Notes under the pieces: generated by a model
What the model was told of the DNA's origin: nothing
Seen by the model: the letters and a program-made list of their open reading frames with translations, nothing else
The model's database searches: none
Part shown: one piece after another, positions 15,584-50,075 of the stretch
Position numbering within the stretch: position 1 is the first letter of the stretch
Layout: every line of letters begins with the position of its first letter
Translations under genes and position numbers: made by a program
NCBI GenBank assembly: GCA_041694255.1
Contig: JASMTN010000021.1
Coordinates: 231-64,230 of the forward strand
From: Candidatus Altimarinota bacterium
Lineage (GTDB): Bacteria > Patescibacteriota > Gracilibacteria > Absconditabacterales > Absconditicoccaceae
DNA: 64,000 nucleotides
Direction: 5' to 3'

Positions 15584-15596
15584 TGTTAAAACATTA

Positions 15597-15797: not shown

Positions 15798-15843
15798 ATT
15801 ACTTTTTAAATAATAAAAAACAGCCATCATTATAATAAATGAT

Positions 15844-15866
15844 GACTATAAATCTACAGACTATAA
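15844..15866 (-). promoter_or_regulatory. tandem GACTATAA repeats upstream of the C-protein gene (candidate operator)
   Basis: GACTATAA occurs at 15844-15851 and 15859-15866. A 7-bp inverted repeat CATCATT/AATGATG (15825-15844) plus an A-run lies adjacent and could terminate the upstream gene. Confidence 0.3.
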
Positions 15867-15874
15867 GTAGAGGT

Positions 15875-16279: not shown

Positions 16280-16283
16280 AACT

Positions 16284-17066
16284 TTACTTCTTAAAAACTA
16301 AAATATACTCATGCTTGAATAGATAATAATCACTATTTAAAGCTCTATACCTCCAAATTCATCAAGTTCATTGTTTTCATCTATTTCACTCCATATTTTT
16401 AACAATAATACTTTTGAGTTTGAAACCCAATTTTTGAGCTTCATTCATACATTGAAAACCTAAAGGTATCCATTCACTTTTTTGATATTTATCTCAAATA
16501 ACTATAACCATGTATCAATCCTTTTTCAATACATTTTTTGTATTTTCAAGAACTTTTGCAAAATCTTGTAAAAATCAGTCTATTCAATTTGAATTTGATA
16601 AATCTTCTTTTTCTTCAGAAAATTTTATTATATCAGCATAAGGAGGATGTAAGATAGCTAAATCAAGTCATTCAATATTTCTATATTTTAATATTTCTTT
16701 TATATCAGAAAGTGTTTTTTTACTTTTACTATCTCATACTCAAAAATGAGCTTTAATTTTTTTACCATCTATTATTTCTTTAGCTTTATCTACAAGCTCT
16801 TTTTGTATATCAATTCATATTATATTTCTTCATAAATCTTCGCATTCAATAGCAGTTGTAGCACTTCCAAGGAAAGGATCAAAAACCCATCATCATTTTT
16901 TTGTATATCTTTTTATAAAATGTTCTGGAATTTGAGGAACAAAATTTCAATGATAATAGTTTGAATGTTTCCCTCACTTTTTTCTTTCTTCTATAACCCA
17001 TAAACTATCTGTAGATATATCTATATCTTTCCAATTTTCCATATCAAAATCATTAAATTTTGGCAT
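16284..17066 (-). CDS. DNA methyltransferase, N4/N6 (ParB-less) family
   Basis: 260-aa ORF. Contains YYHGNFVPQIPEHFIKRYTKKGGWVFDPFLGSATTAIE and AILHPPYADI. Confidence 0.75.
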
Positions 17067-17618: not shown

Positions 17619-17692
17619 TGCTTTAAATTTACTTATTTAGTAACTTTTTTCAAATAAAAAATTTTTTATAATTTTTTAAAAATAAATAAATG
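17619..17692 (-). repeat. imperfect (about 85-90% by eye) copy of the cassette-junction sequence
   Basis: Aligns with 13514-13583. Shares TTACTTATTTA-TAACTTTTTTCAAA and AAAAATTTTTTATAATTTTTTAAAAA. Overlaps the stop codon of the methylase at 17666. Confidence 0.7.
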
Positions 17693-18406
17693 TTCATGCA
17701 TAATAAGTAAAAAATTATAATCTTTTGATTTATTTACCCAAAATCAAGTAGCTTGACAATTATGTTGTTTTTTAATAATATCCTCTTTCAGTACAAATCA
17801 AACTTTTAAAAACCTTTCCATTACTTTAAAAGCAAGTGGTTGATACAATTTTTTTCTTCTTGTATCTCAAATAAGTATAGCACAATAAGATCACTTTTTT
17901 AAAACTCTAAAAGATTCTTTAGCAACTTTTTCTATTTCATTACAAAACTGATCTATATCATGTATATTTGATAAATCTTCTTTTATTTCTCAATCAGAAT
18001 ATTTAATTATATCAGAATAAGGAGGATGAGTTAGCACAAAGTCTATACTTTCATCTTTTATTGAAGTTTTTTTTCTTCTTGCATCTCAAAGTTTTATATC
18101 AATATTAGGTTTATTTTCTGATTTAAAATCAAGTAAACTTTTTGTTAGCTTAACTGAGTTAGGATTTATATCATATCATATTAAATTTCTGTTTAAAAGT
18201 TTAGCTTCAATAGCTGTTGTTCAACCTCAAATCATAGGTTCTAATATAGTATCTCATTCTTGAGAATATCTTAAAATTAGGTTTCTAACAACCTCAGGTG
18301 ACCAGTTTCATCTATATTTACTATTGTGAGTTGCTCGATTTCATCTTCTTGGAAAAGACCACACAGTTGTACATTCAAGTTCAAAATTTTCTGGTTGTTT
18401 TTTCAT
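17666..18406 (-). CDS. DNA methyltransferase, N4/N6 family (DpnA-like second methylase)
   Basis: 246-aa ORF. Contains WSFPRRGNRATHNSKYRGNWSPEVVRNLILRYSQEGDTILEPMIGGGTTAIEA and THPPYSDI. Starts directly after the REase stop. Confidence 0.75.
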
Positions 18407-19285
18407 TTACTCAATTATTTCATCTAAAATACCTTCTTTTAACATTTTCAAGTTATATATATTTCAATTTGTTGCATAATAAGCTTCTTCTAAAGGTTTC
18501 AATGCAGTTTTCCATCATAATCAATCAGTTATCCAAAACATTTGAACTCATTGTTCTTGAAGAAATTTATATAAATAATTAAACTCTCAAGATACAGACT
18601 TTAATTTACTTCATCATCAACCATAATAATTAACTTCTATTAAAGATAATGTTTTAGTTTCTTTATTAAAAATTCAAAAATCAAATCTCCTTGATGATTT
18701 ATCTGATTTAACTTCTATTCACCAATTTTCTTTTATCCATTTAGCTGTTGCTTGTTCTTTATACTCACAATTATTTTTATCACAAAAATCTTTTATAAAG
18801 TCCTCTACTAAATTTTCCATCAAAGTTCAGCTTCTATTTTTCCTTGCATTGCTATCAAGTCAAGTTTCTATACCAAATACATAATCTTCTAAATTTTTTA
18901 TATGTTTATTTTCAAAAATTTTTTGCAATCATGAATTTTTGAAAAACTTTATAAGTTCTTTTTCTCAAGCTATATCAAGTTTAACTTTTTTATCAAACAA
19001 ATATTTAACTTCTAATATTTCTTTAGTTTCTTCATCTAATATTAAATTAAATTTTTCTCTTACAGCTAAAAGTATTGGTAAAACTTCCCTAACTTCTGGG
19101 TATTTTATAACAATTTCTAAAAACCTGTCTTCAATGTTTTGTTCTCAAATAAGAGAATTTAATATATTTAATTGAACTTTTATTTTAAAAGTATTTTGTT
19201 CTATTTTTGGGAAATTACAAAAATAACTCCATGTAAAAATGGTTTTTCTAAAAGTTGAAATTAGGTTTTGGAAGTTTTTTTGCAT
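18407..19285 (-). CDS. type II restriction endonuclease, DpnII/MboI-like family (putative GATC-specific)
   Basis: 292-aa ORF with FGIETGLDSNARKNRSGTLMENLVED and EVNYYGGGGSKLKS. I recognise these as DpnII-family blocks from memory only. Confidence 0.6.
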
Positions 19286-19317
19286 AGTAACTTTAAATTA
19301 ATAATAAAAATTTACTT

Positions 19318-20316
19318 TTATAATTTTTTCTTTGCTTTTGATTTAAAGTCTTCTCAAGTATAATTACATCTTAAATAATCTCTATTTAATATATCTAAAA
19401 TTTTTTCAAAATTTGACTTATTTAAATTAATTTTTTTATTTTTATCAAGTTCTAATAATCATCCAAAATATTTATTGTATTCTGCTTCTGAATAAGATTT
19501 TTTTAAGTTATCTAACATTTTTTCATCAAATTTTTTAATCATACTATCATTATTTGAATCTTTATTTTCTGAAATTAATTTTACCTTTTTAGCAATTGAA
19601 TAATTATTTGCTATCATTTCACTTATAATATCTTCATTATCAATATTAAAGATATTATTTTCATCTGAAATAAAATTATCAGTAAAAAATTTTGTAGCTT
19701 CATCCTTAATATATTCTCTATAATCAAAAATTGACTTATATTTATTGCGATTTAAACAAAATACATATTTTCATCATAAGTAAATTACATCAATAGTTTT
19801 TTTTAAATTTAAATATTCTTTATTATCAATACTTGAAAAAATATTTCAACTTTTATTAAAAAAAAGTGGTATATATTTACTAAGTTTAGTTTTATTTACA
19901 TACATTTGTGGTTTATAAAACGATTGTAATAAATAAATATTTTTTTCATTTTTTTTATAATGAATTATCCAACTTCTTACAGTAAAATTATCTAAATCAT
20001 CAATTTTTTCTATTTCCTTTATTTTATCTTTTTTTATTTTACTATCTATCTCTGGAAATTTTATTACATTAGCTTTTTCTTCATAAAAGTTTTTTTGTGT
20101 ATCATCATCTAAATTATACTCATCAAAATCTTTTACAAAAGTTTCTTCATCAACAACAATATTATTTTTATTTAAACATAAATATGGCTTTAAAAAAGTA
20201 TCCTTAATACTTTTTTCCAATTCATTATCCACTTTTATTTTCTTTAATTGAAAATCTTCGTCTTTAGATTTATTTTTACATAAAATATATAGTCATTCAA
20301 AATTAGTATCTTTCAT
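19318..20316 (-). CDS. hypothetical 332-aa soluble protein (KwaB/DUF4868-like by size and context)
   Basis: Code-25 ORF. Frame agrees with track ORF 19846-20232. I recognise no catalytic motif. Paired with the upstream 4-TM gene. Confidence 0.4.
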
Positions 20317-20322
20317 TGTAAA

Positions 20323-20892
20323 TTAAGAGTTATATAAGTAAATTTCATCTGATATTTTTAAACACCTATCTCTAATAATATTATCATAGTTTATGTTATC
20401 ATATTGTTTTTTTATTATATATATTATATAATTATTTGATTCCATAGCAATTATATCATATCAAAATATTAATAAAAATATATTATATTTAAATAAATCA
20501 CTTTTAATATAAATTATAAAAACTGTTCATAACAAAATAATTGTTATCAAAAGTCTTTTATTATCGTCAATTCATAAAAAAGGAATTAAATATGTAAACA
20601 AGTATGTTAAAACTTCATGATTATTATTTTTAACTAAAAATTCATTATCTTTAATTTTATTAAAAAAAACTTCATTTATTTTATTTCAATATTTTGGTAA
20701 CATTATTTTAAATAAGATAATAACAAAAATAATAGAAAATATTAATAAGAAAATTAATAAATATGTTAAAATATTATGATAAAAGTTTGGTATAAAAGAA
20801 GAAAAATTTTTTAAATCTATTATTATAAAAATAATAAATAAGGGAAAATAACTAGTTATAAATAAAGATATTTTAGATAATAAACTTAACAT
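20323..20892 (-). CDS. 4-TM membrane protein (KwaA-like by size and topology)
   Basis: Track ORF 20686-20892 extends through TGA to 189 aa, with about four hydrophobic helices. Confidence 0.4.
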
Positions 20893-20901
20893 AAAAAAAT
20901 A

Positions 20902-21861
20902 TTAATAACTTAAAACAACAATTTCATCAATTTTTCATCTTCAAGAAGAATTTGAATTTATATTTCTTCTTGCTTTGACAGTTTTAAACTTATATCAAGC
21001 ATAAAGTTCTCTTATATAAGGTGTATCATGATTTGATAACATTACTTTTACTCATTTTTTATCAAGTTTTTTAAAAACTTCTGAAAGTTCTTTTTGCTCT
21101 TTTTTTCAAAATCCTCACTCATTATAGCTTGTAAAATTTGCAGTATCAGTTAATACATCATAAGGAGGATCAAAATATACAAAATCACCTTTTTTAGCTT
21201 TTTCTAAAACTGTATCATAAGATTTAAATTGTATATCTGCTTTTGTTTTATTTAAAAGTTTTGAAGTATTTTGTATATTTTCTTTTTGCACAAAATCAGG
21301 ATTTGTATATTTACCAAAAGGAACATTGAATTGTCAGCTTTTATTTACTCTATAAAGTCAATTAAAACAAGTTCTATTTAGATATAAAAACCTTCAAGCT
21401 CTTTGTATGTTTGAATACTTTTCTTTCCAATTATCTTTCCTATCCCAAGCTCTTATATCTAAAAAAGTTTCTTTATCATAATTTAAGGTTTCAAGAAAGT
21501 TTATAAGTTCTTTTGGATGATTTTTTATAACCTGGTAAGTATTTATAAGTTCTTCATTTACATCATATAAAGAAGATTTTTTTCTTTGTAAATTAAAAAA
21601 CACAGCTCATCATCAAACAAATGGCTCAAAATAATTATTAAACTCTTTTGGAAACAAACTTTCAAGTTGTGAAATTAGTTGTCTTTTTCATCAAACCCAT
21701 TTTACAAAAGGTTTAGCTTTTATGATATCGTTATTTTCTTCAAAAAATTGTTGTCATGATTTTAAATCACTAAATGCTCATGATAATAACCAAGATTGTA
21801 TGATAAGATAATTTATTCAATATTCTTTTGCCAATTTGTTTATTACTTCTTTATCTCACAT
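20902..21861 (-). CDS. Dam-family N6-adenine DNA methyltransferase (DpnM-like)
   Basis: 319-aa ORF. Contains VKWVGGKRQL, EPFVGGGAVFF, NEELINTYQVIK and FDPPYD. Frame agrees with track ORF 21394-21603. Confidence 0.85.
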
Positions 21862-29901: not shown

Positions 29902-31167
29902 CTAAAAATCCCAACTTCATTTCATAGATGAACTTTGAGTATAGTTTGTAACTGTACTTTCAAAAAAGTTTCATTTTTCACTATTATGATCTTGCAACCT
30001 TGTAAGGTGCTTATAAGGATTTTCTGTATATTCTGGATATAATGGATCTAATCATATCATTTCAAGTCTTTGGTTTGCCAACCATTTTGTATATTTATCT
30101 ATACTATCTTTATTTATTCATATAATTCATTCTCATATAATATGATTTGACCAAGATATTTCTTGATTAACTGCAGTATCAAACATTTCATATATAAGGT
30201 TTTTATCGAAAACTTCTGGAGACTCTTCCTTTAGATCTTTAATTAAATGTGCAAATAATGTTACATGAGTAAGCTCATCTCTTCTTATATAATTTATCAT
30301 TCTTTGACTTGCAACCATTTTTCACATATCTGCTAAGGTATCAAAATAAGCAAATCCATTATAAAAATATAAGCTTTCAAGTAGAAAATTACCCACAACT
30401 GCCCTGAAAAAATTTTTATCTGTTTTATTATCAACAAAGTCTTGATATATATTTCATATAAAAGTTATTCTATCTAATAGATGCTTATCTTCATTCCAAA
30501 AGTAATATATTCCATCTCTTTTATCTGCAGGAACAACACTTTCAAGTATCGTTGCATAGCTTTGAGAATGTATGGCTTCCTGATAGTCTTGTATAGCAAG
30601 AACTAAGTTTATTTCTGGAGCTGTTATAAAGTCATTTATATTTGGGAGATTTAGTGTTTGTATACTATCTAAAAAAATTAGGAATGACAATATTCAATTA
30701 TAAGCCCTTTTTTCTTCAGTTGTTAAAGAATTCTTATATTGAGTTCAATCTTCTCATAATCACTTAACTTTTTCAGGAACCCAAAAATTTCAGACCATAA
30801 CTTGATATAAATTTTTAGCCCGAGTATATTTTGTGTTATTAAGTTGAAAAATTTTTGTTGTTGATCATTTTATAACTTTTCTTTGAGATACATCATCATT
30901 ACCTTCTGGATTAAAAAGCAATACTTGTCACATAACTTGTTCTCAATCTTTAATAATATCTATAGTTCAATGTTCTTTATATATCAAATCAATTTGTCAT
31001 GTTATATTCTCAACCAATTCATCTATTGTTTTTGATTGATATGAAATTTTAATTTCTGACCCGTTAACACTAAGTGTTTCAAAAACCTCTCCATAATAAT
31101 AATCATCAACCCTATCTATTTTGATAGTTATATGCAAATTATTTAAGGGATTTATATGCAACTCCAT
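29902..31167 (-). CDS. nrdB: ribonucleotide reductase beta subunit (R2) with an N-terminal extension of about 80 aa
   Basis: 421-aa code-25 ORF. The R2 core starts near ...LLFNPEGN...NFWVPEKV, with EAIHSQSY and RDELTHVTLF iron-ligand motifs. Frames agree with track ORFs 30133-30318 and 30454-30690. Confidence 0.85.
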
Positions 31168-31311: not shown

Positions 31312-33612
31312 ATGAACAACTGCCAACCTAAAGTAAATATAAGTTATCATTGAGGAATAGAAGATAAAAAAGAAGGAATTAGTTTAACATGATCATCAAC
31401 ATTAATGAAAATAAAAGATGAACTTTGATGATATATAAATATAATATTTGATTATTGAATGCATCAATGATGATATAAATCAAATAATCTAAATGAAAAT
31501 ATTGATAATGAAATACTAAAAGCAGACTTTCTTATAATAACACATGCACATATGGATCATGTATGAAGAATACCTATGTTAATAAAAAATGGATTTAAAT
31601 GAAAAATAATAATGACAAATCTTACAAAACAAATAACACAAGCAATGTTAAGTGATTATGTAAGATTAACAGAAAAGCAAATAAGTGAAGTAAAAGAGCA
31701 AAATAAAAAAATATGAGAAACATTTAGTAGGCACATACAAGCAGTAAAAATATATGATGAATTAATAAAATGATGAATTAAAAAAAATGAAAGAGAAAAA
31801 AAAGAAAGAAAATTAGAACAGCTAATATGAGAAAAAGTAAGATATTGAGAAATTAAGAGAAAAAACATTAAAGAAAAAATAAATGAAATAAAGAAATTAT
31901 TAAAAAAATATCATATCAAAAATGAAAGTGATATAAGGCTAATACAAAAAGAAGAACCTGTGTTGTTATATGATTTAGATGATGTATATAAAACAATATC
32001 TAGAGTGGAAACAATTGAAGTATGAAATGAAATAAATTTAGATAATAGAATCTTCATAAATAATAAAGATGATAATAGGATAATATCATTACCTAAAATA
32101 ATTAGAGAATGATACAACAAAAAAATATTTGTATTGCCACATATCAAAGCACATATAGTAAATAAATTAAAAAATTATTTAAACGAAATTGCAAAACATA
32201 ACACAGAAAATAAAAATATTAGAGAAAAATTAAAAAAAATATTAAAAAAGAATAAAAAAACTGATAATGAAAAAAAATTATTAAAAAAATATTGAATAGA
32301 AAAGGTAGATGATATAGAAAACTTAAAAAAAGAAATAATAAAGTTCCCATATACTTATGATGAAATTAAAACAGTTTCAAAAAATTTAGAATTAGTTATT
32401 GATAAAAATAAAAATAAATTTTTAGAAAGTATAAAGCTAAATTTTCATAATGCATGACACATAGAATGAAGCATTCAAGCTACAGTAAGTATAGTTACTG
32501 ACAAAATAATAGATCTTTTATGACAATCACCTCAAAGAAGGTCTTTTGAATGAAAAAAAAGAATTGAAAGAGAATTTAAAAATTTTTGATTTTCTTGAGA
32601 TTTATGAAAAATAACAGAACCAAACATATCATGAAGTCCGGAGATACCATCATATAGATATGACTTTTTTCAATGTGAATCCACATATGCAGATAGAGAA
32701 CATCCTTGCAAAAAAGAAGAGTTCAAAATGTTTATTAATGAAATATATAAAACAAAATGAAAAGTTTTAATACCAGCATTTTCTTTACAAAGAACTCAAG
32801 AAATAATGCTAGAGCTATTACAAAACAAAATATCAAAGCAAGATCTTATAAAAAAATACTGACAATTAAAGCAAGAACTAAGAAAACTTAATATGGAACT
32901 TGCAAAATTAATATGAAATCAATATATAGAAAAAGATTATGAACATAAAGTAAAAAACATTAAAGAAAAAATTGAAATAATTAGTAATGAGATTGATAAA
33001 GTTTGAGAGCAAGTATTTTTATATGAAATAATTGTTGATTCTCCATTATCAAAAGAAATTAGTGATATATTTTTACATAATTTATGAGAAAAATACAAAC
33101 TACTTGATAAAAAAGTACAAGAGGATAAAATATGAAAAAACACAATAACATATCTTGAAGATAATGAATATAAAAAACATTACACAGATAAAAGAATAAA
33201 TAAAAAAGATATAATACTTTCATCTTGATGAATGCTACAGTGATGAGCAATAACAAATCATATAAAATTATTAATTTGAGACCCTAATTCAAAAATTATA
33301 TTTACTGGATATCAAGCAGAATGAACATTATGAAGAGAGTTGATAGATTGAAAAAAACAAATAATAATAGATTGAGAAGTATATGATGTAAATTGTCAAA
33401 TAGTACAAATAAGGTGATATAGCTCACATATATGAAAAAATGACCTTATAAATTATATATGACAATATTTAAATTTTTCAAAAAAATCAATAGTAGCATT
33501 AAATCATGGTTGAGAATCAAGAAACCATCTTGCATATGAGATAAATAAATTAAATCCCTTGCAAAAAATAGAAATTCCAAAACTTTGAGATACAATAGAA
33601 ATTAAACTCTAA
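31312..33612 (+). CDS. metallo-beta-lactamase / beta-CASP family nuclease (RNase J/CPSF-like) with large K/E-rich insertions
   Basis: 766-aa code-25 ORF. Contains ITHAHMDHVGRIP (HxHxDH), HNAGHIEGS, CESTYADREH, GYSSHIGKNDL and ALNHGG. Confidence 0.65.
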
Positions 33613-34090
33613 CATATTCTAAAAATTCAAAGCTTATTCAGTTTTCTTCCTTTTTTCAACTACGAGAAGATAATTTAAAATCTTCTTGTATTTTTTTTAT
33701 AAAATTTTGTTCAAAAAACACATCACAATTAAAATTTGAATAAACTTGAGTTATGTATATTTTATCAGCATACTCTATACCCTCTTTATATATTCTTTTT
33801 CCTCACATTAAAAAAATATCACCTGATGTATCTTCTATAGCTTGTTTTAAACTAGAAAAAACTTTATAATTATCTGCTAGATCCAATGAAGAGGATATTA
33901 TTATATTTTCCCTTCATGGTAAAGGTCTAACTTTTTCTGGTAGTGAATTCCAAGTATTTTTTCACATAATAACAGTTTTTCATTTTGTTTTTTGTGAGAA
34001 AAATTTCAAATCTTCTTTAATAGTCCAACAAAGGTCATTATTTTTTCATATACCATAGTTTTCATCCATTGCAAATATAAGGTTTATCAT
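33602..34090 (-). CDS. folA: dihydrofolate reductase
   Basis: 162-aa ORF. Contains MINLIFAMDENYGIGKNNDLCW, TVIMGKNTWNSLP, PLPGRENIIIS and IFLMGGKRIY. Its 3' end overlaps the convergent gene by 11 nt. Confidence 0.85.
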
Positions 34091-34117
34091 TTCTCTACTT
34101 GAAAAAAGTTAAAAATT
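34090..34117. repeat. 28-bp perfect direct repeat, left copy (island 2 boundary)
   Basis: TTTCTCTACTTGAAAAAAGTTAAAAATT, identical to 40316-40343. Starts at the first base of the folA start codon complement. Contains the last codons and stop of res. Confidence 0.9.
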
Positions 34118-36730
34118 TAATAATTTATCATCAAAAGCTTCTTCAAAATCTATTTCTAAATCTTTATTGTATAATGGTAATCAAATAAGTTTATAATTTC
34201 AAAAGTTAGAATCAATAATCTCTGCCTTTTCATCTATTCAAGATAAGAATTTTTCTTTCCATCATTCTTTTGAATTTCAAAATAATCATTCAGCATCTTT
34301 AAATTGACTTCACTTAGGTTCTATAAATATTTGATAAGTTAAAGGTTTTTTAGTTTCTTTTTCTTTCATAAATAAAACAAAATCTGGTTCAAATCTATCT
34401 CAATCATCAAAAGAATATATTGCAAAGTGTCTTTCATTTCTTATTAAATATATATCATCATATTTATTATTTAAATCTTGTAACTTCTTTTCAAATAGTT
34501 CTATAAGATGTTTTTCTTCACTTGTTGCTGTTATTTTATCAAATACAAACCAATCTTTATCTTTTGTATAGTCTTCATAAGAATTTACTTTTATAGTTTT
34601 ATCTTTAAATATTTCTGATATTGCTTTTGCATCAAATGCAGTAGTTCATTCATATTTTGTTTCTTGTTGTTTAATCTCACTTTCCATAGATTTTAATAGT
34701 GCTGATACTGCTTTTAATAAATCATCACTGTTTAAGTTGTCTAAAACTTCTTTTGAACTATATAAATCAATTCTTTTAGATGAAAGATATTTATAGTCTG
34801 TAATAAATTCATCTATACTTTTAAGTTGTCATATATAATTTTTGAGATTATCAAATTTATAAAAATCATTTTGTTGTATAGCTTTTCTAATTATTTTTTT
34901 ATCTATATCTTTCATTTGAAAGCTTTTAGGTTCTTTCTCTTGTTTTTTTCAAACATCTTTTTCATTATTTTCAAAAACTTGTATATCTCAACTTTTACCA
35001 GTATGTAGTGTAAATTCAAATCTTTCTATTTTCATTCATACTTCTTCTAAGCTTTTAACTTCTTTATTATCTTTTTCTTGTCTTTTATTAGTATAGATAT
35101 ATCAGTTTTTATAAAAATTTGTTTGTTTAAAACTTTCTTTAAGTTTAAGAGTAAATTCCTTTTTTTCTTCTTCATCCATCATTCAAGTATCTTTTAAGGC
35201 TTGTTTAATTTCTGTAATATATAATCAGTCTTTATCATAAAAAGTATGATAGTAAAAAGTTTCTAATATTTTCAATTCTTCATCTTCTTTTTTATCAAAT
35301 TTTCTTTTATATTTACTTTCTCATAATGCTTTTTCGGTAGTAAATGGAAAATATCTTGCTCATCTTCATATAAGCTGTGCTTCAGACATTGTTTGAGGTC
35401 AAACTTTTACTTTTCAAGTTTTTTTATCAACAACATTACTTCTTGATTCATAAAGTCTTACTATATCAAAAAGATTTAAAACATCCCATCATTCATTTAA
35501 CTTTTGAACTGCAAATATAGCTCTTATTCTATTATCTTTTTCTTCTAAAGTATTTAATAAAATTTGATTTTTATTTGCTTGTTTATCATCATTTGCACTT
35601 ATACAATTTTCTTCAGCAAAATCTTGTTTTAATTCATTTGTAATATCTTCCAAAGATAAATCATTGTTACTAAAAAAGTTGAATGCTTTTATAAGTATAT
35701 CTTCATTTGTTATGTTTTTTATTCTTTCAAGGTCTTCAGCTTTTAAGTTTTTTATTAGTTTATTAAATTTATCAAGATTTTCTTCACTTTCAGCTATTGT
35801 TTTTTGTGCCTTAAAAAGAATAACAGGTTTACAATATATGTTATTTTTTTCTGCAACTTTCAATCTATACTGACTTAAAATAAGGGCTTGTAATATCCTA
35901 TCTTTTTGTTCCATATCAGCTTTTAAAATATCTACTTCTTTGCTATATCCATCAAGTCTAAATTGTTTTAGATCATACTTATATATTATCTTATCAATAT
36001 ATTTTTCTGCTATATTTTCATTTTGTAAATCTACTGTTGCTGTAAATTCTAAAAGTAAATTGTCCTTATGAGATTGTAATATATTTTTAACAGTATATTC
36101 CCAAGAAGATTTTTCCAATTCTTCGGTTTTATTTAATTTTCATTTTTTTGTAGTGCTGTTTATATGATGAGCTTCATCAGAAATTATTGCTACCTTATTT
36201 TCTTTAAAATCTTCATAAGAAAGTCAGTTTTCTTTTGGAAAATTTAAATCCATATGTAATCATTGTATAGTAGTGAATTTTATATTTATATCATCTTTTT
36301 TAGATTCTGCAAAATTATCAACTTCTTTTATATTTATTTGTTCACTATCAAAAGTTATTTTTTGATTAAAAAGGTATTTTGAAGAGTTTGAATTTAAAAA
36401 ATTTTCTTTAGTTTTTTCTATAATATTTGTAGAATTTACAAAAAACAGAAAGTTTTTATATCATTTTTCATAAAGTTCTAAAATTAAACTTGCCATTATG
36501 AAAGTTTTACCACTTCAAGTTGCCATATTGAAAAGCAAATGAATAGGTTGTATTTTATTTGGATATTGATTAAAATAATAAGAAAATCTTGCATAAGCTT
36601 CTTTTTGATATTCTCTTATTTCAAAATTTTGATTTAAGTTTTTTGAAATATATAAAGGGATAGTTTTATCTAAAACTCACATTTCTGATAATGTATCAAG
36701 TTTTTGATATAAGAATTGTTGGTTTTGCAT
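34109..36730 (-). CDS. res: type III restriction enzyme Res subunit (SF2 helicase + PD-(D/E)xK nuclease)
   Basis: 873-aa code-25 ORF. Contains MATGSGKT (Walker A), ISDEAHH (DEAH), FTATV, QKLNEGWDVLNLF, and C-terminal FEPDFVLF...FIEPKG. Frame agrees with track ORF 35489-36118. Confidence 0.85.
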
Positions 36731-36743
36731 TTTGTTAGTTTAA

Positions 36744-37238
36744 TTATAATGTAAATATAAGTATAACAAACAATATTATACTAATTCATAATATTAAAGA
36801 AGACTTTTTTATATTTTTCATTTTATAATTAGCAATTGTTGAGTTTATATATATCTGTTCTAATATTTGTTTTTCTTTTTCTGTGTTTGATAATTTTTTA
36901 TATCATTTAATAAAATCTCATATCTCCATACTTGATATACTTCAAAAATAGAAAAAGTTTTTGCAAGATAAATTATTGGTATTAATATTTGGATAAACTG
37001 AAATTAATAAAAAAGTTATTCAAACTATAATAGACAATATAAAAATAAGTAGTATTCATAAAGTAATATAATCACAATTATTTAAATTTAAGAAAACAAA
37101 ATCAGACCTATTCCAAATAAGAAAAGTTATTAATAAAGCATAATATGTTGATAACAAAGTAAACTTTTGTTCTGCAAATTTTATCCATTCATTAACTTTA
37201 CTTAATTCATTCTGAAGTATTTGTATTTTATCTGACAT
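36744..37238 (-). CDS. 2-3 TM effector-like protein (Pycsar PycTM/DUF5706-like)
   Basis: Track ORF 37056-37238 extends through TGA to 164 aa. N-terminal helix with NEWIKFAEQKFTLL (FA-D/E-x-K-like) followed by TM helices, plus a C-terminal TM. Immediately downstream of the cyclase gene. Confidence 0.5.
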
Positions 37239-37265
37239 TTATAATTATATTTATATATAAATTTT

Positions 37266-38075
37266 TTAATTATCTAATTGTATTATATTATTACACCAGT
37301 CTTTTCAGTGTTTTTCACACCAATTACTTTTCAATACATATGCTTTATTAAAATCAAATCTATTATCTTTTAATAAATTTCTTGTATTCCATAACTCTTC
37401 TTTATATCAATGATTTTCACTGTTAGTACATCAACAAGATTTAGTAACTAACTCTGAAGTATTAATATTTTCATAGTACCTATCAGAAACATATAATTCT
37501 CATTTATCTGAAAGTGAAGCTAATTTTGCAGACATATTTATTGGTTTTCAAGCCCATACTTCATTTTTTCTATCATCTCTATCAGAATTATTTTTTAATC
37601 ATAAAGATTTTACCAATACTGTTTTTTGGTCTATTCACATATGGTATCAGATTTCTACTTTTCAATTAAGTTTTTTGGTTACTTTTGGTATAAAAGTATT
37701 ATCAGCAAAAGTTTTAAAAGTTATAGCAGATGCGAAAGCAGTAAAGGGTTTATTTTTAGAAAAAAGAGCGAAAACTCAATCTCACTTAATATCAATGTAT
37801 TCTGCTCACATATTATGAAAAGTTTTTATTGCAGTGCCAGTGAAAAATTCATAAATGTTTGCTGTTGTATTTTGATGAGAAGTAGCACTCAACCCTGTAG
37901 AGTTTTTTATATCAACAAAAACTGAAATCACATCTTTAACTTTATACCAATGATTCATTGGATATTTTCAATTTGATGGAAGATTGTTAATATTTTGTAT
38001 AGATACACTATTATTAAACTTTTCAACTGAGGAAGCTATAATTTTATCTATATTATCCAAATATTGATTGCTCAT
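37266..38075 (-). CDS. class III nucleotidyl cyclase-like protein (Pycsar PycC-like)
   Basis: 269-aa code-25 ORF, checked codon by codon. VISVFVDIKNSTGL (metal-binding Asp motif) and IDIKGDGVFALF (GDG motif). Cys/His-rich C-terminal tail CGC...H...C..H...C. Confidence 0.6.
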
Positions 38076-38080
38076 AATTT

Positions 38081-40018
38081 TTACCCCTTATAAAATAAAT
38101 CATTCAATTTTTTATCTTCATCGTCTATATTATAAGTTTCATCTTCCATTTCACTATAATTTACATATAATAAGTTTTTATCAAGTAATTCTATCAAGAA
38201 TTTTTTCATATTTTCTATAGAAAGATTTTCAAATTCTTGTATATTTTCATCAATAGTTTTTATATCTACATCATAGTTTATAAATCAAGTTTGTTTGATT
38301 TGTGAGTAAATATCAAGTAATGCTTGTTTGTCTTGTGATTTATTTATCTTGTTTATAAAAATTTGATTTGATTCCATAGTTTCCATATATACAAAATCTC
38401 ATCATCATTCCCAATTTACAGATTTACTAATTCATCATTGTTCTCATTCTATTACTTTTTTCATTCTCTCACAAGTTATATCTTGTATATAATCCATTTG
38501 TTCAATTCCTATATATTGTCTTCACATTTTATGAGCTACGGCAGTAGTTGTTCAGCTTCATAGATGATAATCCAAAACTATATCTCAAGGATTTGTTGAA
38601 AGTTCTATTATTCTTTGAATTAGTTTTTCTGGTTTAGGAAAAGAAAAAACTTTATTTCAAAACATAATATTTAATTCTTTATTTGCCTCAGAATTATTAG
38701 TAAAGTCTATAATATTTGAATATGGAGTTTTAGATTCATATCATTCATATCTTTTTGTATATACAGACCATCAATTTTTGGTTTTAATAAATTCTATATT
38801 TCAATTATTTAATTCTTCATAAAATCTTTTTTCAGAAAGTCTCCATTGCCAATCTCTATTTTTTGATAATCATTCTTTTCTTTGTTTAAATTTTTTTTCA
38901 TCATTTCAAGGATAAATATTTTGTCAATTAGGAGATGAAATTATAAAATCATTATTTGGTCTATATTCTAAACCTCATCTATCTAATTTTTCAATATTAT
39001 ATTTTCATTTTTCATCTTGTCTTTTAAAATCTATATTAAGAATTCTTTTATTTAATTCAGTAAGATTATCAGTTTTTCTAAATAAAAGAATATTTTCAGT
39101 TTGCACTGCAATAAATTTTGAATCATTTTTTCAAGAAGATTTTTTATATACTATGCTTGAAACAAAATTTTCTCTTCCAAAAACTTCATCCATCAAAACT
39201 TTTAAATAAGCTTGTTCATTATCATCACATTGTACAAAAATAACTCAATCATCTTTCAATAAATCTTTTGCAACTTCCAACCTATTTTTCATAAAAGTAA
39301 GCCAAGTTGAATGATTGAACCTATCATTATAACCAAAACTATCATTACCAGTATTATAAGGTGGATCTATATAAATAAGTTTTACTTTGTTTGCAAATTG
39401 TTTCTTTAATGAATGCAGTATAAGTAAATTATTTCATTTTATTATCAAATTATCTGTAATAGTATCTTCACTCAATCATCTTTTTTTATTCAATTCTTTA
39501 TCTTTATTGAATCAATCAAGTTTATGTTCTCAATTTTTATCTATTCTTTTATAGTTTGTAAATACTTTATCATCCAAAAGTCTATCAATTTCATCTTGTC
39601 ATAAAATTTCATTATAAAAAGTTTCTTGTCTTTTGCTATCTTCTTTATCTTGTCATCCAGCTAATACACAATCTTTGAAAGGAAAAGAAAGCACAACTTC
39701 ATTTGAAGATGATATATAATCTCAAGATTTATTTGTAAGTCATATTTTATTTTTGAAACTTGTATAACTATCAGGTAAAAATTCTTTATTGTTTACAAAT
39801 TGTACAAATTTTTTGCTATCAAAAACTATTACATCTTTTATAGGTTTAAAAAATACTTTTCTTGTATCATTATTTTCCAAAAGTAAAGAAATAAGATTTT
39901 CATCAAGTTTTTCTGCCTTTTCTCTGATAGTATTTTTAAGTAAATATCAATCTTGAGATACAAACCTTTCATCTTGTTTTAAAACCTCTATAAGTGTATT
40001 TTGTAGTTTGTTTTGCAT
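38081..40018 (-). CDS. mod: type III R-M Mod subunit (N6-adenine methyltransferase)
   Basis: 645-aa ORF. Contains LIYIDPPYNTGNDSFGYNDRFNHSTWLTFM, DDGVIFVQCDDNE and VLDYHLGSGTTTAVAHKMGRQYIGIE. Confidence 0.85.
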
Positions 40019-40381: not shown

Positions 40382-41413
40382 ATGCAACATGGAGAATTTC
40401 AATATCTAAATTTGCTAGAAAAAATAATAAATGAATGAATTGATAAAAATGATAGAACATGAGTTGGTGTAAGATGAATATTTGGTTCTCAAATGAAGTT
40501 TGACCTTACAAAATGAGATTTTCCACTTCTTACAACAAAAAAAACTTTCTTAAGGTGAATAGTTGTTGAACTTATATGGCTTATAAGATGAGAAACAAAT
40601 ATAAAATATCTAGTAGATAGAAATGTACATATATGGGATGAATGGCCTTTTCAAAATTGGTTAGATAATTCAAATGAGGTAAATGCTACAAAATATCCAA
40701 GATATTCTAAAGAATGGTTAGAACTTAAACAAGAATGGATAGAAAAAATTAAAAATCTTGAAGAAACAAATGAATGGGTATTAAAATGGTGAGACCTTTG
40801 ACCAGTATATGGACATCAATGGAGAAACTTTTGAGGTTGAGAAAGCTTTTCTTCTTGGGTAGAAGATATATCAAAAAGACAATGGTGAACACCTTGATGA
40901 GTAAGTGCCCTATCAAATACAAGTGGTGCTGACCAACTTAAACAAGCTATAGAAAAAATTAAAAATAAACCTACTGATAGAAGAATTATAGTAAGTGCTT
41001 GGAATCCATTACAATTTGATATGATGTTATTACCTCCTTGTCATATGTTCTATCAATTTAATGTAGATACAACAAATAAAAAATTAAACTTACAAATGTA
41101 TCAAAGATCTGCTGATATGTTCTTATGAGTTCCTTTTAACATAGCTTCTTACTCTGCTTTATTGCTTATAATAGCAAAACTTACTTGACTAGAACCTTGA
41201 GAATTTACTCATACTTTATGAGATGCTCATATATATTCAAATCATTTTGATCAAGTTAATACACAACTTTCAAGAGAGCCTTTCCCTTTTCCAAAACTAG
41301 AAATTAAAAAAGAACTTAATACTATAGAAGATATAGAAAATCTTGAATGGGAAGATTTTGCTCTTATATGATATGAATCACATGAAAAAATAAAAGCTCC
41401 TGTTGCAGTTTAA
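40382..41413 (+). CDS. thyA: thymidylate synthase (ThyA) with internal insertions
   Basis: 343-aa code-25 ORF. Contains [78 protein letters not shown] and GDAHIY. Trp is encoded by TGG throughout. Confidence 0.9.
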
Positions 41414-47369: not shown

Positions 47370-50075
47370 CTACCCTGCACAACTTTCACACTTTTCAACT
47401 TCTAAGCTCATAGATCTCACATAATAAACTGTTTTTAGATCATTATTCCAAGCTTGAAGGTAGTAGTTAAATAAATCTACAGGAGAAACTTCCATAGGAT
47501 TTATAATCCATTCAAAACTAATACTTTGATCTATCCATTTTTGAACAGAAGCTATAACATCTATAACATTTTTCATGTTCATATTTACATACTCTTTATA
47601 TAACCAAAAACTTTCTTTTGATAAGTTTGGTGCTACATTTACAGTAGGTGCTGCTGAATTTGTTTCTACAAAATATTTTTTATATACAGGCAATAATCAA
47701 GCAGTTGTACCCACAACAAGTGCAGTAGATGTATTTGGTGCAGGAGCTTGATGATAACCAAATCTTGTGCCATATTTTTTAATATTTTCTATAAGATCTT
47801 TCCATTCAAGTGCATGGTCAGAATTTTCCTCAAACCAAGAAGTATCTTTACCAAATAAGATACCTTTTGACCAGTCAGATCCTTCAAATTTACTATATTC
47901 TCATCTTTCTTTTGCTAAGTCTAATGAAGCTTTTAAAGTATAATAAGCATATTGTTCAAAAAGTTTATCTACATGTTCAACAGCTTCTTTACTATCATAC
48001 CTTATCTTTGCTCTTGTTGCAAGATATTCTGATAATCACATATAACCAAGTCATACTGCTCTATATTTCATTGCAGTTAATTTAGTTTCTTTCACAGGAT
48101 AAAAGTTCATAGTTATAACATTATCCAAAACTCTCATAGATGTATTATGAACATCCTCTATATCCTCTGAATAAGAATTTACTTTTGCAACATTTATACT
48201 AGCAAGGTTACATACAACAGTATCTCAAGGTTTATACTTTATATTTACTGTACCATCTTCATAAGTTTCTTCTTTAAATTGACTTTCAGAAGTATTTTGT
48301 ATGATCTCTGTACAAAGTTGAGTAGAATATACCATACCTTCATGTTTATTAGGATTATATTTATTTGCAGTATCTCTAAAAAATACATATGGCATTCATG
48401 TTTCAACTACTGTTCTTAAAAATTGTTTAAATAAATCTTTTGCATCAACTTCTTCTTTTAATTTTATATTTGGATTATTTTCTACTTCTTCATATAATCT
48501 TGAAAATTCTTTACCATAATAATCTTCTATCCTAACTCAAAGTACAGTTCTTACTTCTTTTGGATCAAATAAAGTCCATTTTCCACCAGCTTTTACTCTT
48601 TCCATAAAAAGATCAGGTATTGAAAGTGCTGGAAATACATCAAAAGATTTACTTCTTATATCTCAAGTTTCAGTTTGTATCTCAAGAAAATCAAGTATAT
48701 CTAAATGCCAAGCATCAAGTGTAACAGATATTGCTCAAGCTCTAGCTCAAAGTTGATTAACTGCAATAGCAGTATCATTCATTACCTTTACCCAAGGAAG
48801 TATTCAACCACTTGCTCATTCAACTTCTCTTATACTTGCTCACTTTGCTCTTATATGTCAAAGATAAGATCCTATTCAACCACCAAATTTAGATATTTGT
48901 GCCATATTCTCTATAGTATGATATATACCTCTTAGGTCATCTGCTATGTTAAATTTAAAGCAAGATGATAATTGATGAAAGTTAGTTCTTGCATTTAAAA
49001 GTGTTGGTGTTGGCAAAGATATCTTTCAAGTTGAAGTATAATCATATATTTTATAAGCAACTTCAATTCTTCTATTTTTTAACCAAGGATGTTGTAAAGT
49101 TTCTTTAGATATTTCAAGTATATCATCAAGAGTTTTATTCTTATCTGCAATTATAGCTTTATCATTTTCTGGTAATTCATTATATATCTCTTCTGGCAAA
49201 CTATCTAGTCCTTCAGGTATTGCTAAAAATAATGCAACAGACATATACATTTGTTGAGGAATTTCTTTTATTATTTTATTTGGATTTAGAAGATATCTTT
49301 TATTATACATCAAAACAGTAGTATAACCATAATCAAAATCTCTTTCTTTTTTAATATACTCACCTGCTTTTAGTATCTCATTATCCTCATAAAAGTTTTT
49401 AAAATCCTTAAAATAAAGATTATTTTCTATATAATGATTAAATAACTTAACATAGTTTTCCTTATTATATAGATCATCAATTTTAGTTCATAAGTTTCTA
49501 CTAGCTTCTTTATATATAAACAACAGTGAAAGTCTTCAAGCTATCTTTTGCCAAGATGTATTTTCTATACTAATTTTATCTACAGCTGATTTAATAAGAA
49601 GCTTCATAAGTTGAGAAGAACTTATCTTAGGGATAAGGTATTTTTCTACCTCTTTTTTAAATTCTTCATAAGAACATTCTTGTATATCCTTTGAAACAAT
49701 ATTAAATACTTTTTCTATTTTTTTGAAATTAAATTTTTCTTCTTTGCCATTTTTTTTTATTACATATGTATTTTTTGCTTTGTTATCTTCAACTTGTTGT
49801 TCATGAGTTTTAGACCTATAAAGTATATAAGACTTTGCTATATCATATTCATTAAGCTCTATAAGTGTTTTTTCTACCAAGTCTCATATAAATTTTGTAC
49901 TTATTCTATTATTATCCACAAAGTCTTCAATTTTAAGTTTAAGTATATCCATAGCTTCTTCTATATTATGAGGTTCTTGATTAACTGATTCGTAAGATTT
50001 TAATAAAGACTTTCTTACTTTAGCAAAATCAAGATTTTGTTCTCTACCATTTGATTTTATTATAATAATTCACAT
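47370..50075 (-). CDS. nrdA: ribonucleotide reductase alpha subunit (class I) with N-terminal ATP-cone
   Basis: 901-aa code-25 ORF. ATP-cone [18 protein letters not shown]-terminal ...[18 protein letters not shown] redox tail. Frames agree with track ORFs 47370-47693, 49026-49313 and 49536-49880. Confidence 0.85.

What the first reader, a model, noticed from the sequence alone, without database searches (positions are those of the whole stretch)
36744..38075. Pycsar-like cyclase + TM effector pair inserted between type III mod and res
Seen: the ORF at 37266-38075 carries class III nucleotidyl-cyclase hallmarks, VFVDIKNSTGL and KGDGVFALF. The next ORF (36744-37238) is a 164-aa protein with an N-terminal amphipathic helix (NEWIKFAEQKF) and TM helices. 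Established knowledge: Pycsar systems pair a cCMP/cUMP-forming cyclase (PycC) with a TM or TIR effector. Unusual features: its position inside an R-M operon; a Cys/His-rich C-terminal tail of about 70 aa on the cyclase (SCGCTNSENHG...WCEKHGKDWC) that could be a Zn-binding sensor module; and a host with an extremely reduced genome.
Basis: partly seen in the sequence, partly recalled or inferred. Interest (0 to 1): 0.75.

Follow-up and report, generated by a model that had tools for sequence, protein, structure and literature searches.

The report
Pycsar cassette nested in type III R-M
A known two-gene anti-phage alarm system (Pycsar: a cUMP-type cyclase plus a membrane effector) sits between the two genes of a type III restriction-modification operon in a UGA=Gly candidate-phylum bacterium; the system is ordinary, but that mod-res gap proves to be a recurrent slot where defence cassettes are swapped.

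Summary
Read with genetic code 25 (UGA=Gly), 37266-38075(-) encodes a 269-aa clade D PycC. It matches a PADLOC PycC profile at 1e-107 and the crystallised Anabaena uridylate cyclase AnPycC (PDB 8JSZ) at 3e-81, both over the full length. 36744-37238(-) encodes a 164-aa PycTM (Pfam PF18967). Both lie between an intact type III mod and res, with gaps of 5, 27 and 13 nt. The "unusual" Cys/His tail is the published clade D zinc ribbon, and all four ligands are conserved. The arrangement is not unique. Pycsar sits between type III mod and res in two other loci, downstream of a type III mod in a third, and inside a type I operon in a fourth. The closest R-M frame (Ca. Vampirococcus lugosii, Res 86% identical) carries a different cassette (PDC-M59) at the same junction. 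About 29% of 72 related type III loci hold diverse cargo there. The same window also has Kiwa nested in a DpnII-type operon. Verdict: a new member of a known system, embedded in a way known for type I R-M, BREX and DISARM but apparently not yet surveyed for type III. Moderate-low interest.

The parts
38081..40018 (-). Type III R-M methyltransferase (mod), 645 aa; upstream half of the 'frame'
   Evidence: Pfam PF01555 N6_N4_Mtase 2.5e-52 and PF12564 TypeIII_RM_meth 1.7e-22. The DPPY motif (IYIDPPYNTG) and DYHLGSGTT are read directly from the translation. 31 in-frame UGA=Gly codons.
38076..38080 (-). Left cassette junction: 5 nt between the mod stop codon and the pycC ATG
   Evidence: Sequence ...TATAAGGGGTAA AAATT ATG. 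Homology with V. lugosii mod runs almost to the stop codon and then ends.
37266..38075 (-). pycC: clade D pyrimidine (predicted uridylate) cyclase, 269 aa
   Evidence: PADLOC PDLC00763 PycC 1.3e-107, full length. PDB 8jsz AnPycC 3.3e-81 over residues 3-269. Catalytic D55/D99 and pocket residues F53/K97/F102 correspond to AnPycC D62/D106 and F60/K104/F109. 13 of 15 Gly codons are UGA, including all eight invariant Gly columns.
37464..37946 (-). Cyclase catalytic core of PycC (residues ~44-204)
   Evidence: Aligned to the AnPycC core and to BcPycC 7r65 (2.5e-09); coordinates.
37269..37463 (-). C-terminal zinc-binding ribbon of PycC (residues ~205-269; ligands C214, C216, C253, H256)
   Evidence: Aligned to AnPycC C221/C223/C260/H263. 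C214/C216/C253 are conserved in 120/120 homologues and H256 in 119/120.
37239..37265 (-). 27-nt spacer between pycC and pycTM
   Evidence: Coordinates. No terminator-like site on the minus strand.
36744..37238 (-). pycTM: Pycsar transmembrane effector, 164 aa (N-terminal helix 1-25; TM 27-43, 58-82, 146-164; basic loop 83-145)
   Evidence: Pfam PF18967 PycTM 1.9e-12, above the gathering score. PADLOC PycTM PDLC02364 1.7e-29, full length. Hydropathy.
36731..36743 (-). Right cassette junction: 13 nt between the pycTM stop and the res ATG, belonging to the frame
   Evidence: TTAAACTAACAAA-ATG in the window against TTAAAATAACAAA-ATG in V. lugosii, although the genes upstream of it differ.
34109..36730 (-). 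Type III R-M restriction subunit (res), 873 aa; downstream half of the 'frame'
   Evidence: Pfam PF04851 ResIII 1.1e-31; HI_1054-type domains are recorded for the same protein (P0121). Walker A ATGSGKT, DEAH, QLIGRGAR and the nuclease motif EPD...IEPK are intact and invariant in 29 relatives. 86% identical to the Ca. Vampirococcus lugosii Res.
33602..34090 (-). folA (dihydrofolate reductase), 18 nt downstream of res on the same strand; a neighbour that may share the transcript, not part of the defence system
   Evidence: Pfam PF00186 3.3e-43; no minus-strand terminator between res and folA.

Best explanation
This is a complete clade D Pycsar anti-phage system (PycC + PycTM) carried as a cassette in the mod-res junction of an intact type III restriction-modification operon. 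The host is an Absconditabacteria-like bacterium that reads UGA as glycine. The proposed working is as follows. The four genes (and perhaps folA) are transcribed together from upstream of mod [inferred from spacing and orientation]. The R-M pair restricts unmodified incoming DNA as a first line [by family]. If a phage gets through, the PycC homodimer switches from an inactive to an active conformation and cyclises a pyrimidine NTP, most likely UTP to 3',5'-cUMP. That product is predicted because the clade D pocket residues (F53, K97, F102), the catalytic aspartates (D55, D99) and the Cys3His zinc ribbon (C214, C216, C253, H256) are all conserved [shown at sequence level; the product is inferred by homology to AnPycC]. 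The nucleotide then activates PycTM, a small three-helix membrane protein that compromises the membrane and stops growth before phage progeny are released, which is abortive infection [by family; the trigger and the way this small PycTM binds the nucleotide are unknown]. The nesting itself is best explained by cassette exchange. The conserved 3' end of mod and 5' end of res act as homology arms, so different abortive-infection or toxin modules are swapped in and out of one R-M frame, travel with it, and are co-expressed with it. No specific biochemical coupling to the R-M enzymes is required.
For: Identity of the pair: (PADLOC PycC 1e-107; 8jsz 3e-81; Pfam and PADLOC PycTM). Functional residues: with conservation in 120 homologues. 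Native status: 13/15 (PycC) and 6/6 (PycTM) Gly codons are UGA against 66% for the window, GC3 is like the neighbours, and the nearest relatives P0002 and P0010 are also UGA-recoded and form a clade with it. Intact frame. Tight same-strand packing with no internal minus-strand terminator. Cassette exchange: V. lugosii (Res 86% identical; 80-88% DNA identity at the mod 3' and res 5' ends) carries PDC-M59A/B in the slot, with sharp junctions; L006 also has PDC-M59; L007 has an unknown 261-aa gene. 21 of 72 related type III loci have at least 350 nt of cargo in the slot, falling into ~41 clusters from 47 ORFs. These include Old, a PD-T7-5-like protein, MNT/HEPN, RhuM-Fic, Schlafen-ATPase, DUF3800 and one IS200. 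Recurrence of Pycsar as cargo: L097 (type III mod-DUF4145/PD-T7-4-PycC-PycTM-res); L005 (a Mod C-terminus immediately upstream of pycC); L099 (a distantly related type III frame in a standard-code genome); L093-95 (a type I operon). A second nested system (Kiwa in a DpnII-type operon) lies in the same window.
Against: Nothing was measured: there is no transcript, nucleotide product or phage phenotype. The cUMP assignment rests on one characterised relative at ~58% identity. F53 is Y in 15 and K97 is R in 29 of the 120 homologues, so the pocket is not invariant. Promoter-like sites are no more frequent than chance and SD motifs are not used in this genome, so operon structure is inferred only from spacing. 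No recombination scars or repeats mark the junctions, so the exchange mechanism is inferred from comparative structure alone. The context sample for clade D PycC is small (9 distinct close contexts) and was not drawn at random. Distant actinobacterial plasmid homologues (30-34% identity) are not nested in R-M.
Confidence: 0.85

Rival explanations
1. Guarded-trigger model: Pycsar is functionally wired to the type III enzyme, not just parked in it. By analogy with PrrC, which the EcoprrI type I R-M complex keeps latent and a phage anti-restriction peptide unleashes, PycC would be held inactive by Mod/Res (or sense its DNA-bound or inhibited state) and would fire when a phage blocks restriction.
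For: Five of nine distinct close clade D PycC contexts are nested in R-M operons. Four of these are type III, and they include two unrelated type III frame families. The cargo is always co-oriented and tightly spaced. The trigger of Pycsar is unknown, and PycC is thought to switch between inactive and active conformations (PMC11224242).
Against: Closely related frames carry unrelated cargo in the same slot. Related PycC-PycTM pairs stand alone in L001-4, L096 and L092. The Anabaena clade D system protects E. coli without any cognate R-M (PMC11224242). No extra domain in PycC or PycTM could dock to Mod or Res, since the profile coverage is full length.
Confidence: 0.1
2. The cyclase makes cCMP (or another nucleotide) rather than cUMP.
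For: Specificity is inferred only by homology. The pocket positions vary within the family (F/Y at 53, K/R at 97). Clade E enzymes make cCMP with a similar core.
Against: It falls in clade D (PADLOC full-length model, 8jsz 3e-81), not with the clade E cytidylate cyclase 8jsf (E=0.13). It has exactly the F/K/F triad that AnPycC needs to make cUMP, and the paper states that clades A-D convert UTP to cUMP.
Confidence: 0.08
3. The pair is a decaying or silent remnant: an insertion that merely interrupts the R-M operon, with no present defence function.
For: There are no expression data, and reduced genomes do carry relics.
Against: Both ORFs are full length against their profiles, and all catalytic, pocket and zinc residues are intact. 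Codon usage and UGA-Gly usage are fully native. mod and res are also intact. A streamlined genome at 93% coding density would be expected to lose dead genes.
Confidence: 0.04
4. A housekeeping class III adenylate/guanylate cyclase with a membrane partner used for ordinary signalling.
For: Some databases label homologues 'class 3 adenylate cyclase'.
Against: Pfam PF00211 does not reach threshold. The best matches are Pycsar-specific profiles and a crystallised uridylate cyclase. The partner is PycTM. The genomic context is defence.
Confidence: 0.02

Closest known systems
Anabaena sp. clade D Pycsar (AnPycC, PDB 8JSZ, + AnPycTM; Nat Commun 2024, PMC11224242)
   Same: Same two-gene architecture (cyclase then PycTM). 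Full-length alignment at E=3e-81 (about 58% identity). Same catalytic aspartates, the same F/K/F UTP pocket and the same Cys3His zinc ribbon.
   Different: The host lineage and genetic code differ: 13 UGA=Gly codons in pycC. It is nested between type III mod and res instead of standing alone. It is untested biochemically.
Defence systems embedded within other defence systems ('guilt-by-embedding', bioRxiv 10.1101/2024.01.29.577857); classical example PrrC inside the EcoprrI type I R-M operon
   Same: Cargo lies between genes of a DNA-modification-based system, in the same orientation and tightly packed. Cargo families are diverse and largely defence-related. V. lugosii and L006 carry PDC-M59, a candidate defined in that work.
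   Different: That survey covered Hma, BREX, DISARM and type I R-M, not type III, and does not mention Pycsar. Here the host frame is type III (mod-res junction), with ~29% occupancy in 72 loci.
Ca. Vampirococcus lugosii type III R-M locus (NZ_JAEDAM010000007.1; L008)
   Same: It has the closest frame: Res 86% identical, conserved mod ends, the same 14 nt before the res ATG, and the same genetic code.
   Different: Its slot holds PDC-M59A + a Fic/DOC PDC-M59B instead of Pycsar. The central region of Mod has diverged (53% overall), suggesting a different target sequence.
Other nested clade D Pycsar loci found here: L097 and L099 (type III), L093-95 (type I)
   Same: PycC-PycTM lies between the modification and restriction genes of one R-M operon.
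   Different: They carry additional co-embedded genes (DUF4145/PD-T7-4 in L097; a 256-aa gene in L099; GmrSD and a 240-aa gene in L093-95). The L099 frame is a different type III family in a standard-code genome.

Membership tests
Pycsar cyclase PycC, clade D | Class III nucleotidyl-cyclase core with the two metal-binding aspartates | tested here: met
   D55 and D99 align to AnPycC D62/D106 and are conserved in 120/120 homologues.
Pycsar cyclase PycC, clade D | Full-length similarity to PycC-specific profiles or characterised PycC, rather than to generic cyclases | tested here: met
   PADLOC PDLC00763 at 1.3e-107, residues 2-268 against profile positions 4-265 of 268. 8jsz at 3.3e-81. The generic PF00211 is not detected.
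Pycsar cyclase PycC, clade D | Clade D pyrimidine pocket residues (AnPycC F60, K104, F109) | tested here: met
   F53, K97 and F102 are present. Within the family the counts are F 105/Y 15, K 90/R 29 and F 118.
Pycsar cyclase PycC, clade D | C-terminal Cys3His zinc-binding ribbon (AnPycC C221, C223, C260, H263) | tested here: met
   C214, C216, C253 and H256 are present and invariant in 119-120 of 120 homologues. Metal binding itself was not measured.
Pycsar cyclase PycC, clade D | Synthesises cUMP from UTP | not testable with these tools
   Needs the purified enzyme (recoded UGA to GGN) and LC-MS/MS.
Pycsar system | Cyclase gene adjacent to an effector gene (PycTM or PycTIR) on the same strand | tested here: met
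   pycTM starts 27 nt after pycC on the same strand. The same pairing occurs in L001-5, L090-99.
Pycsar system | Confers phage resistance by abortive infection | not testable with these tools
   Requires expression and phage challenge. The host is uncultured and uses code 25.
PycTM effector (Pfam PF18967) | Match to the PycTM profile above the curated threshold, plus transmembrane helices | tested here: met
   47.9 bits against a gathering score of 27.2. PADLOC PycTM at 1.7e-29, full length. Three hydrophobic segments.
Type III restriction-modification system | Mod subunit: N6/N4 methyltransferase with a type III-specific N-terminal domain and catalytic DPPY | tested here: met
   PF01555 and PF12564; IYIDPPYNTG and DYHLGSGTT are in the translation.
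Type III restriction-modification system | Res subunit: SF2 helicase motifs plus a C-terminal PD-(D/E)xK nuclease | tested here: met
   PF04851. ATGSGKT, DEAH and QLIGRGAR are present, and E781-P782-D783...E804-x-K806 are invariant in 29 relatives.
Type III restriction-modification system | mod immediately followed by res in one operon | tested here: not met
   They are on the same strand and in the same order but separated by the 1,350-nt Pycsar cassette. In 50 of 72 related loci the gap is at most 46 nt. This is an interruption of the canonical layout, not evidence against the identity of the enzymes.
Embedded defence system (guilt-by-embedding definition) | Genes located between genes of one known defence system, in the same orientation | tested here: met
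   pycC and pycTM are flanked by mod and res, all on the minus strand.

The most novel reading that the evidence does not exclude
The type III R-M frame is not just a parking place but the guard for Pycsar. On this reading, clade D PycC is kept inactive while Mod/Res works normally and is switched on when a phage inhibits or overwhelms restriction, as PrrC is by EcoprrI. That would explain why clade D Pycsar turns up again and again between mod and res, and it would give the unknown Pycsar trigger a concrete, testable identity. A weaker and more probable version is that the mod-res junction of type III systems is a dedicated cassette-exchange site whose unassigned cargo contains new defence genes. 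Examples are the 261-aa gene in L007, the four genes in L025, the 243-aa gene in L017 and the 239-aa partner of a trypsin-like protease in L036.
Probability: 0.1. Interest if true: 0.7.

Novelty: new member of a known kind. Interest (0 to 1): 0.35.

Why it matters
The system adds a clade D Pycsar to a lineage (Absconditabacteria/Gracilibacteria-type, UGA=Gly) for which I found no published report of Pycsar. At least 10 of the 120 nearest PycC homologues come from such recoded genomes, so cyclic-pyrimidine signalling is part of the defence kit of these small-genome episymbionts or predators. More useful is the context. The mod-res junction of type III R-M systems behaves like the embedding sites described for type I R-M, BREX, DISARM and Hma, with about 29% occupancy and very diverse cargo. 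That extends 'guilt-by-embedding' discovery to another abundant host frame and supplies a list of unassigned candidate genes. The recurrent Pycsar-in-R-M nesting, together with Kiwa nested in a DpnII-type operon in the same 64 kb, suggests that in compact genomes layered defence (restriction first, abortive infection second) is packaged into single transcription units.

Tried and rejected
(1) Table 11 ORF calling gives only fragments and was replaced by my own code 25 translation. (2) Pfam PF00211 and NCBIfam do not recognise the cyclase, so 'not a cyclase' was considered and rejected after the PADLOC and PDB matches. (3) A Shine-Dalgarno-like AAGGGG formed by the last mod codons ahead of pycC was rejected: only 3 of 67 genes in the window have any SD-like 4-mer, against a ~7% background. 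(4) I searched for repeats or att-like sites flanking the cassette and found only AT-rich chance matches. (5) The promoter/terminator scan was uninformative: 59 promoter-like sites against 62.7 expected, and the only two terminator-like sites are on the + strand. (6) Higher slot occupancy in recoded than in standard-code genomes is not significant in the unbiased survey (3/5 against 18/67, p=0.14). (7) PycC on viral contigs: none confirmed, but the patterns use GGN glycine codons and would miss recoded phages. (8) Exact-sequence context look-ups failed for P0001 and P0122, and the cluster look-up gave no accession or organism for the source contig. (9) The single-sequence AlphaFold model of the KwaB-like protein was unusable (pLDDT 42), and its profile has no PDB sequence match. 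(10) The L056 'gap' is a second, split mod copy, not cargo, and was excluded. (11) Tal et al. 2021 (Cell) is not held in the library, so statements about Pycsar in general come from PMC11224242. (12) Actinobacterial plasmid homologues (30-34% identity) are not nested in R-M, so the association does not extend to distant relatives.
Full report
GENETIC CODE AND OBSERVATION. Under table 11 the region is a litter of short ORFs. Reading UGA as sense raises the coding density of the window from 3% to 93%. With that code, 37266-38075(-) is a 269-aa ORF containing VFVDIKNSTGL (residues 52-62) and KGDGVFALF (97-105), and 36744-37238(-) is a 164-aa ORF. Both are exactly as described.

WHAT THE TWO GENES ARE. 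The cyclase matches a PADLOC PycC profile end to end (E=1.3e-107; residues 2-268 against profile positions 4-265 of 268), and the small protein matches PycTM profiles (PADLOC 1.7e-29; Pfam PF18967 at 47.9 bits against a cutoff of 27.2). The generic class III cyclase Pfam model and NCBIfam miss the cyclase. Against the PDB, the cyclase aligns over its full length with 8jsz, 'uridylate cyclase' (E=3.3e-81), more weakly with BcPycC 7r65 (2.5e-09), and only marginally with the clade E cytidylate cyclase 8jsf (E=0.13). 8JSZ is AnPycC, the clade D enzyme from Anabaena (PMC11224242). That paper shows that it makes cUMP, is paired with AnPycTM, needs F60/K104/F109 and the catalytic D62/D106, and carries a Cys3His 'zinc-binding ribbon' (C221, C223, C260, H263). 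The ribbon is conserved in clade D, absent from the other clades, and required for activity and for phage defence. All of these residues are present in the window protein (F53, K97, F102; D55, D99; C214, C216, C253, H256). Among 120 homologues the zinc ligands are conserved in 119-120. PycTM has an N-terminal helix, three hydrophobic segments (27-43, 58-82, 146-164) and a basic 63-residue loop. It is too small for a canonical cyclic-nucleotide-binding domain, and how it senses the nucleotide is not known.

NATIVE OR IMPORTED. Thirteen of 15 glycine codons in pycC and 6 of 6 in pycTM are UGA, against 66% for the window, and GC and GC3 match the neighbours. All eight invariant glycine columns of the family (G98, G100, G143, G147, G159, G176, G215, G257) are UGA in this gene. 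The database entry P0001 is this same gene mistranslated with table 4. The two nearest relatives (P0002 at 65%, P0010 at 63%) are also UGA-recoded and form a clade with it. At least 10 of the 120 best homologues show the same 'KWDW' mistranslation signature. Pycsar has therefore circulated within UGA=Gly lineages for a long time. I found no paper linking Pycsar to CPR/Patescibacteria.

THE FRAME. The gene upstream (38081-40018) is a type III Mod (PF01555 + PF12564) and the gene downstream (34109-36730) is a type III Res (PF04851). The methyltransferase, helicase and PD-ExK nuclease motifs are all intact. The gaps are 5 nt (mod-pycC), 27 nt (pycC-pycTM), 13 nt (pycTM-res) and 18 nt (res-folA). 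No terminator-like site lies on the minus strand, and promoter-like matches are at chance level. Co-transcription is thus inferred, not shown. The Res is 86% identical to that of Candidatus Vampirococcus lugosii (Absconditibacteriota), a predatory CPR bacterium with 1151 genes, UGA=Gly and a single type III system (PMC8080830).

THE SLOT. In V. lugosii the same junction holds a different pair: a 343-aa protein and a Fic/DOC protein that match PADLOC's candidate system PDC-M59A/B (7.8e-104 and 6.9e-24). Homology between the two loci runs through mod almost to its stop codon (80% DNA identity over the last 300 nt). It resumes 14 nt before the res ATG (TTAAA[C/A]TAACAAA-ATG), with 88% identity over the first 300 nt of res. 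Two further UGA=Gly loci with Res ~70% identical carry PDC-M59 again (L006) or an unassigned 261-aa gene (L007). A survey of 80 metagenome loci with Res relatives (43-56% identity) found mod upstream on the same strand in 73. One of these (L056) was excluded because its gap holds a second, split mod copy. Of the remaining 72, 50 have mod and res at most 46 nt apart and 21 (29%) have 350-3,000 nt between them. The 47 ORFs in the slots, counting the three close relatives L006-L008 as well as the survey loci, fall into ~41 clusters. Those that can be named are typical abortive-infection or toxin modules: an OLD-family nuclease (PADLOC Old 5e-32), a PD-T7-5-like protein, MNT/HEPN-type pairs, a RhuM-Fic fusion, a Schlafen/AlbA_2 ATPase, a trypsin-like protease, DUF3800 and DUF365. 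There is one IS200 transposase. No repeats or recombinase genes mark the window's junctions. The simplest mechanism is homologous recombination through the conserved mod 3' and res 5' ends. The frames themselves move horizontally: L006 has RuvB 41% identical to the window's but Res 71% identical.

IS PYCSAR-IN-R-M A ONE-OFF? No. L097 (UGA=Gly; PycC 63%, Res 56% identical) reads type III mod - DUF4145 (PD-T7-4-like, 4e-11) - PycC - PycTM - res. L005 has the closest PycC, and the 68 nt before pycC encode '...SDEEKKLNREFYK*', the characteristic C-terminus of these Mod proteins. L099, a standard-code genome with a distantly related type III frame (Mod 31% identical; Res with an RE_endonuc domain), reads mod - PycC - PycTM - 256 aa - res. 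L093-95 read hsdM - GmrSD - hsdS - PycC - 240 aa - PycTM - hsdR, which is a type I frame. Stand-alone or merely island-located pairs also exist (L001-4, L096, L090/91, L092), and distant actinobacterial plasmid homologues are not nested. So 5 of 9 close contexts are nested in R-M operons, but the sample is small and not random.

COMPARISON WITH WHAT IS KNOWN. Nesting of defence genes inside DNA-modification-based systems has been described and exploited ('guilt-by-embedding', bioRxiv 10.1101/2024.01.29.577857). That study covered Hma, BREX, DISARM and type I R-M, found 96.7% co-orientation, and proposed co-regulation and complementary defence. It did not survey type III R-M and does not mention Pycsar. 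The present locus is therefore a new member of clade D Pycsar, in a new lineage, embedded in a host frame that has apparently not been surveyed. It is not a new kind of system.

MECHANISM AND RIVALS. The best-supported reading (0.85) has three parts. Type III restriction is the first line. Clade D PycC produces a cyclic pyrimidine, most likely cUMP, on infection. PycTM then damages the membrane and aborts the infection. The nesting reflects cassette exchange and co-expression. Residue conservation, gene integrity and the comparative structure of the slot are shown; the product, trigger, transcript structure and phenotype are inferred. The most interesting rival (about 0.1) is a PrrC-like guard relationship, in which inhibition of restriction triggers PycC. 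The recurrence of the nesting favours it. Cargo turnover, stand-alone relatives and the R-M-independent activity of AnPycsar in E. coli argue against it. Other rivals are cCMP as the product (0.08), a silent remnant (0.04) and a housekeeping cyclase (0.02).

SIDE FINDING THAT BEARS ON THE READING. At 17.7-21.9 kb on the minus strand, a DpnII-type type II operon runs as follows: a D12 Dam-like methylase (20902-21861), R.DpnII (18407-19285, PF04556 7e-90) and a second methylase (17666-18406). Between the first methylase and the endonuclease it has a KwaA homologue (20323-20892, PADLOC 1.3e-16) and a 332-aa gene (19318-20316), with gaps of 9, 6 and 32 nt. The 332-aa protein has no direct family match. 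Exhaustive HMMER found nine remote homologues; in the nine-sequence alignment of the protein with eight of them, four members match Pfam KwaB (best 3e-24). Kiwa is thus nested in a second R-M operon in the same 64 kb, which suggests that nesting abortive or membrane modules inside R-M operons is a habit of this genome.

VERDICT. The tail is not novel. The nesting is real and recurrent, and it is a variant of a known phenomenon. Interest 0.35.

Noticed in passing
window 17666-21861 (-): Kiwa (KwaA 20323-20892; divergent KwaB 19318-20316) is nested between the Dam-like methylase (20902-21861) and R.DpnII (18407-19285) of a DpnII-type type II R-M operon, followed by a second methylase (17666-18406). 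This is a second 'abortive module inside an R-M operon' in the same window.
   Followed up: yes
window 13813-17066 (-): Another R-M cluster: a D12 methylase (13813-14880), an ICEA/NlaIII-like type II endonuclease (14930-15583; PADLOC REase_II 8e-29), an unassigned 134-aa protein with an N-terminal TM helix (15875-16279) and a further N6_N4 methylase (16284-17066). Together with the DpnII/Kiwa and type III/Pycsar loci, about 14 kb of the 64-kb window is defence.
   Followed up: partly
whole window: Genetic code 25 (UGA=Gly). 66% of all glycine codons in called genes are UGA, GC is 20-32%, and Shine-Dalgarno-like motifs are essentially absent upstream of genes (3/67). Public protein collections hold these genes mistranslated with table 4 (W for G), which depresses apparent identities by about 5%.
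   Followed up: yes
window 33602-34090 (-), 40382-41413 (+); also 29902-31167 (-), 47370-50075 (-): The type III/Pycsar locus is bracketed by nucleotide-metabolism genes: folA 18 nt downstream of res and thyA divergent from mod (Pfam). Two ORFs that read like ribonucleotide reductase subunits lie nearby; that is my reading of the translations and was not tested. In L092 a clade D PycC also directly follows a ribonucleotide reductase gene. This may be coincidence.
   Followed up: no
L008 1-1473 vs window 38081-40018: V. lugosii Mod is only 53% identical overall but 81% in a conserved 190-aa segment, while Res is 86% identical. The central (target-recognition) part of Mod has been exchanged or has diverged, implying a different methylation specificity on an otherwise near-identical frame.
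   Followed up: partly
L007 1-5284: This type III frame lies next to RecT, an M78 peptidase, an HTH protein and a serine recombinase. It probably rides on a prophage-like or integrative element in a UGA=Gly genome.
   Followed up: no
L007 7210-7995; L017 659-1390; L025 3934-6960; L032 4209-5638; L036 2420-3139; L075 531-1124: Slot cargo with no Pfam or PADLOC match: a 261-aa gene, a 243-aa gene, a four-gene set including a multi-TM protein, a 319-aa + 154-aa pair, a 239-aa partner of a trypsin-like protease, and a 197-aa gene. By the guilt-by-embedding logic these are candidate new defence genes.
   Followed up: partly
L093 6825-7547; L099 7307-8077: Extra unassigned genes travel with nested Pycsar: a 240-aa gene between PycC and PycTM in the type I-nested loci, and a 256-aa gene with predicted TM segments between PycTM and res in L099. 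They could be accessory Pycsar components or separate cargo.
   Followed up: no
L100-L102 (Arthrobacter, Mycobacterium marinum pRAW, Curtobacterium plasmids): Distant (30-34% identity) full-length homologues on actinobacterial plasmids sit beside one or two additional cyclase genes and, in pRAW, an annotated Pycsar effector next to ESX/type VII secretion genes. These multi-cyclase arrangements are unlike the simple pair seen here.
   Followed up: no
L001-L004, first 100-220 nt: Four independent assemblies of the P0010 Pycsar locus all break 100-220 nt upstream of pycC, which suggests a repeat or strain-variable region just upstream. The visible upstream sequence is AT-rich and non-coding, and a hairpin plus T-run follows pycTM.
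   Followed up: no
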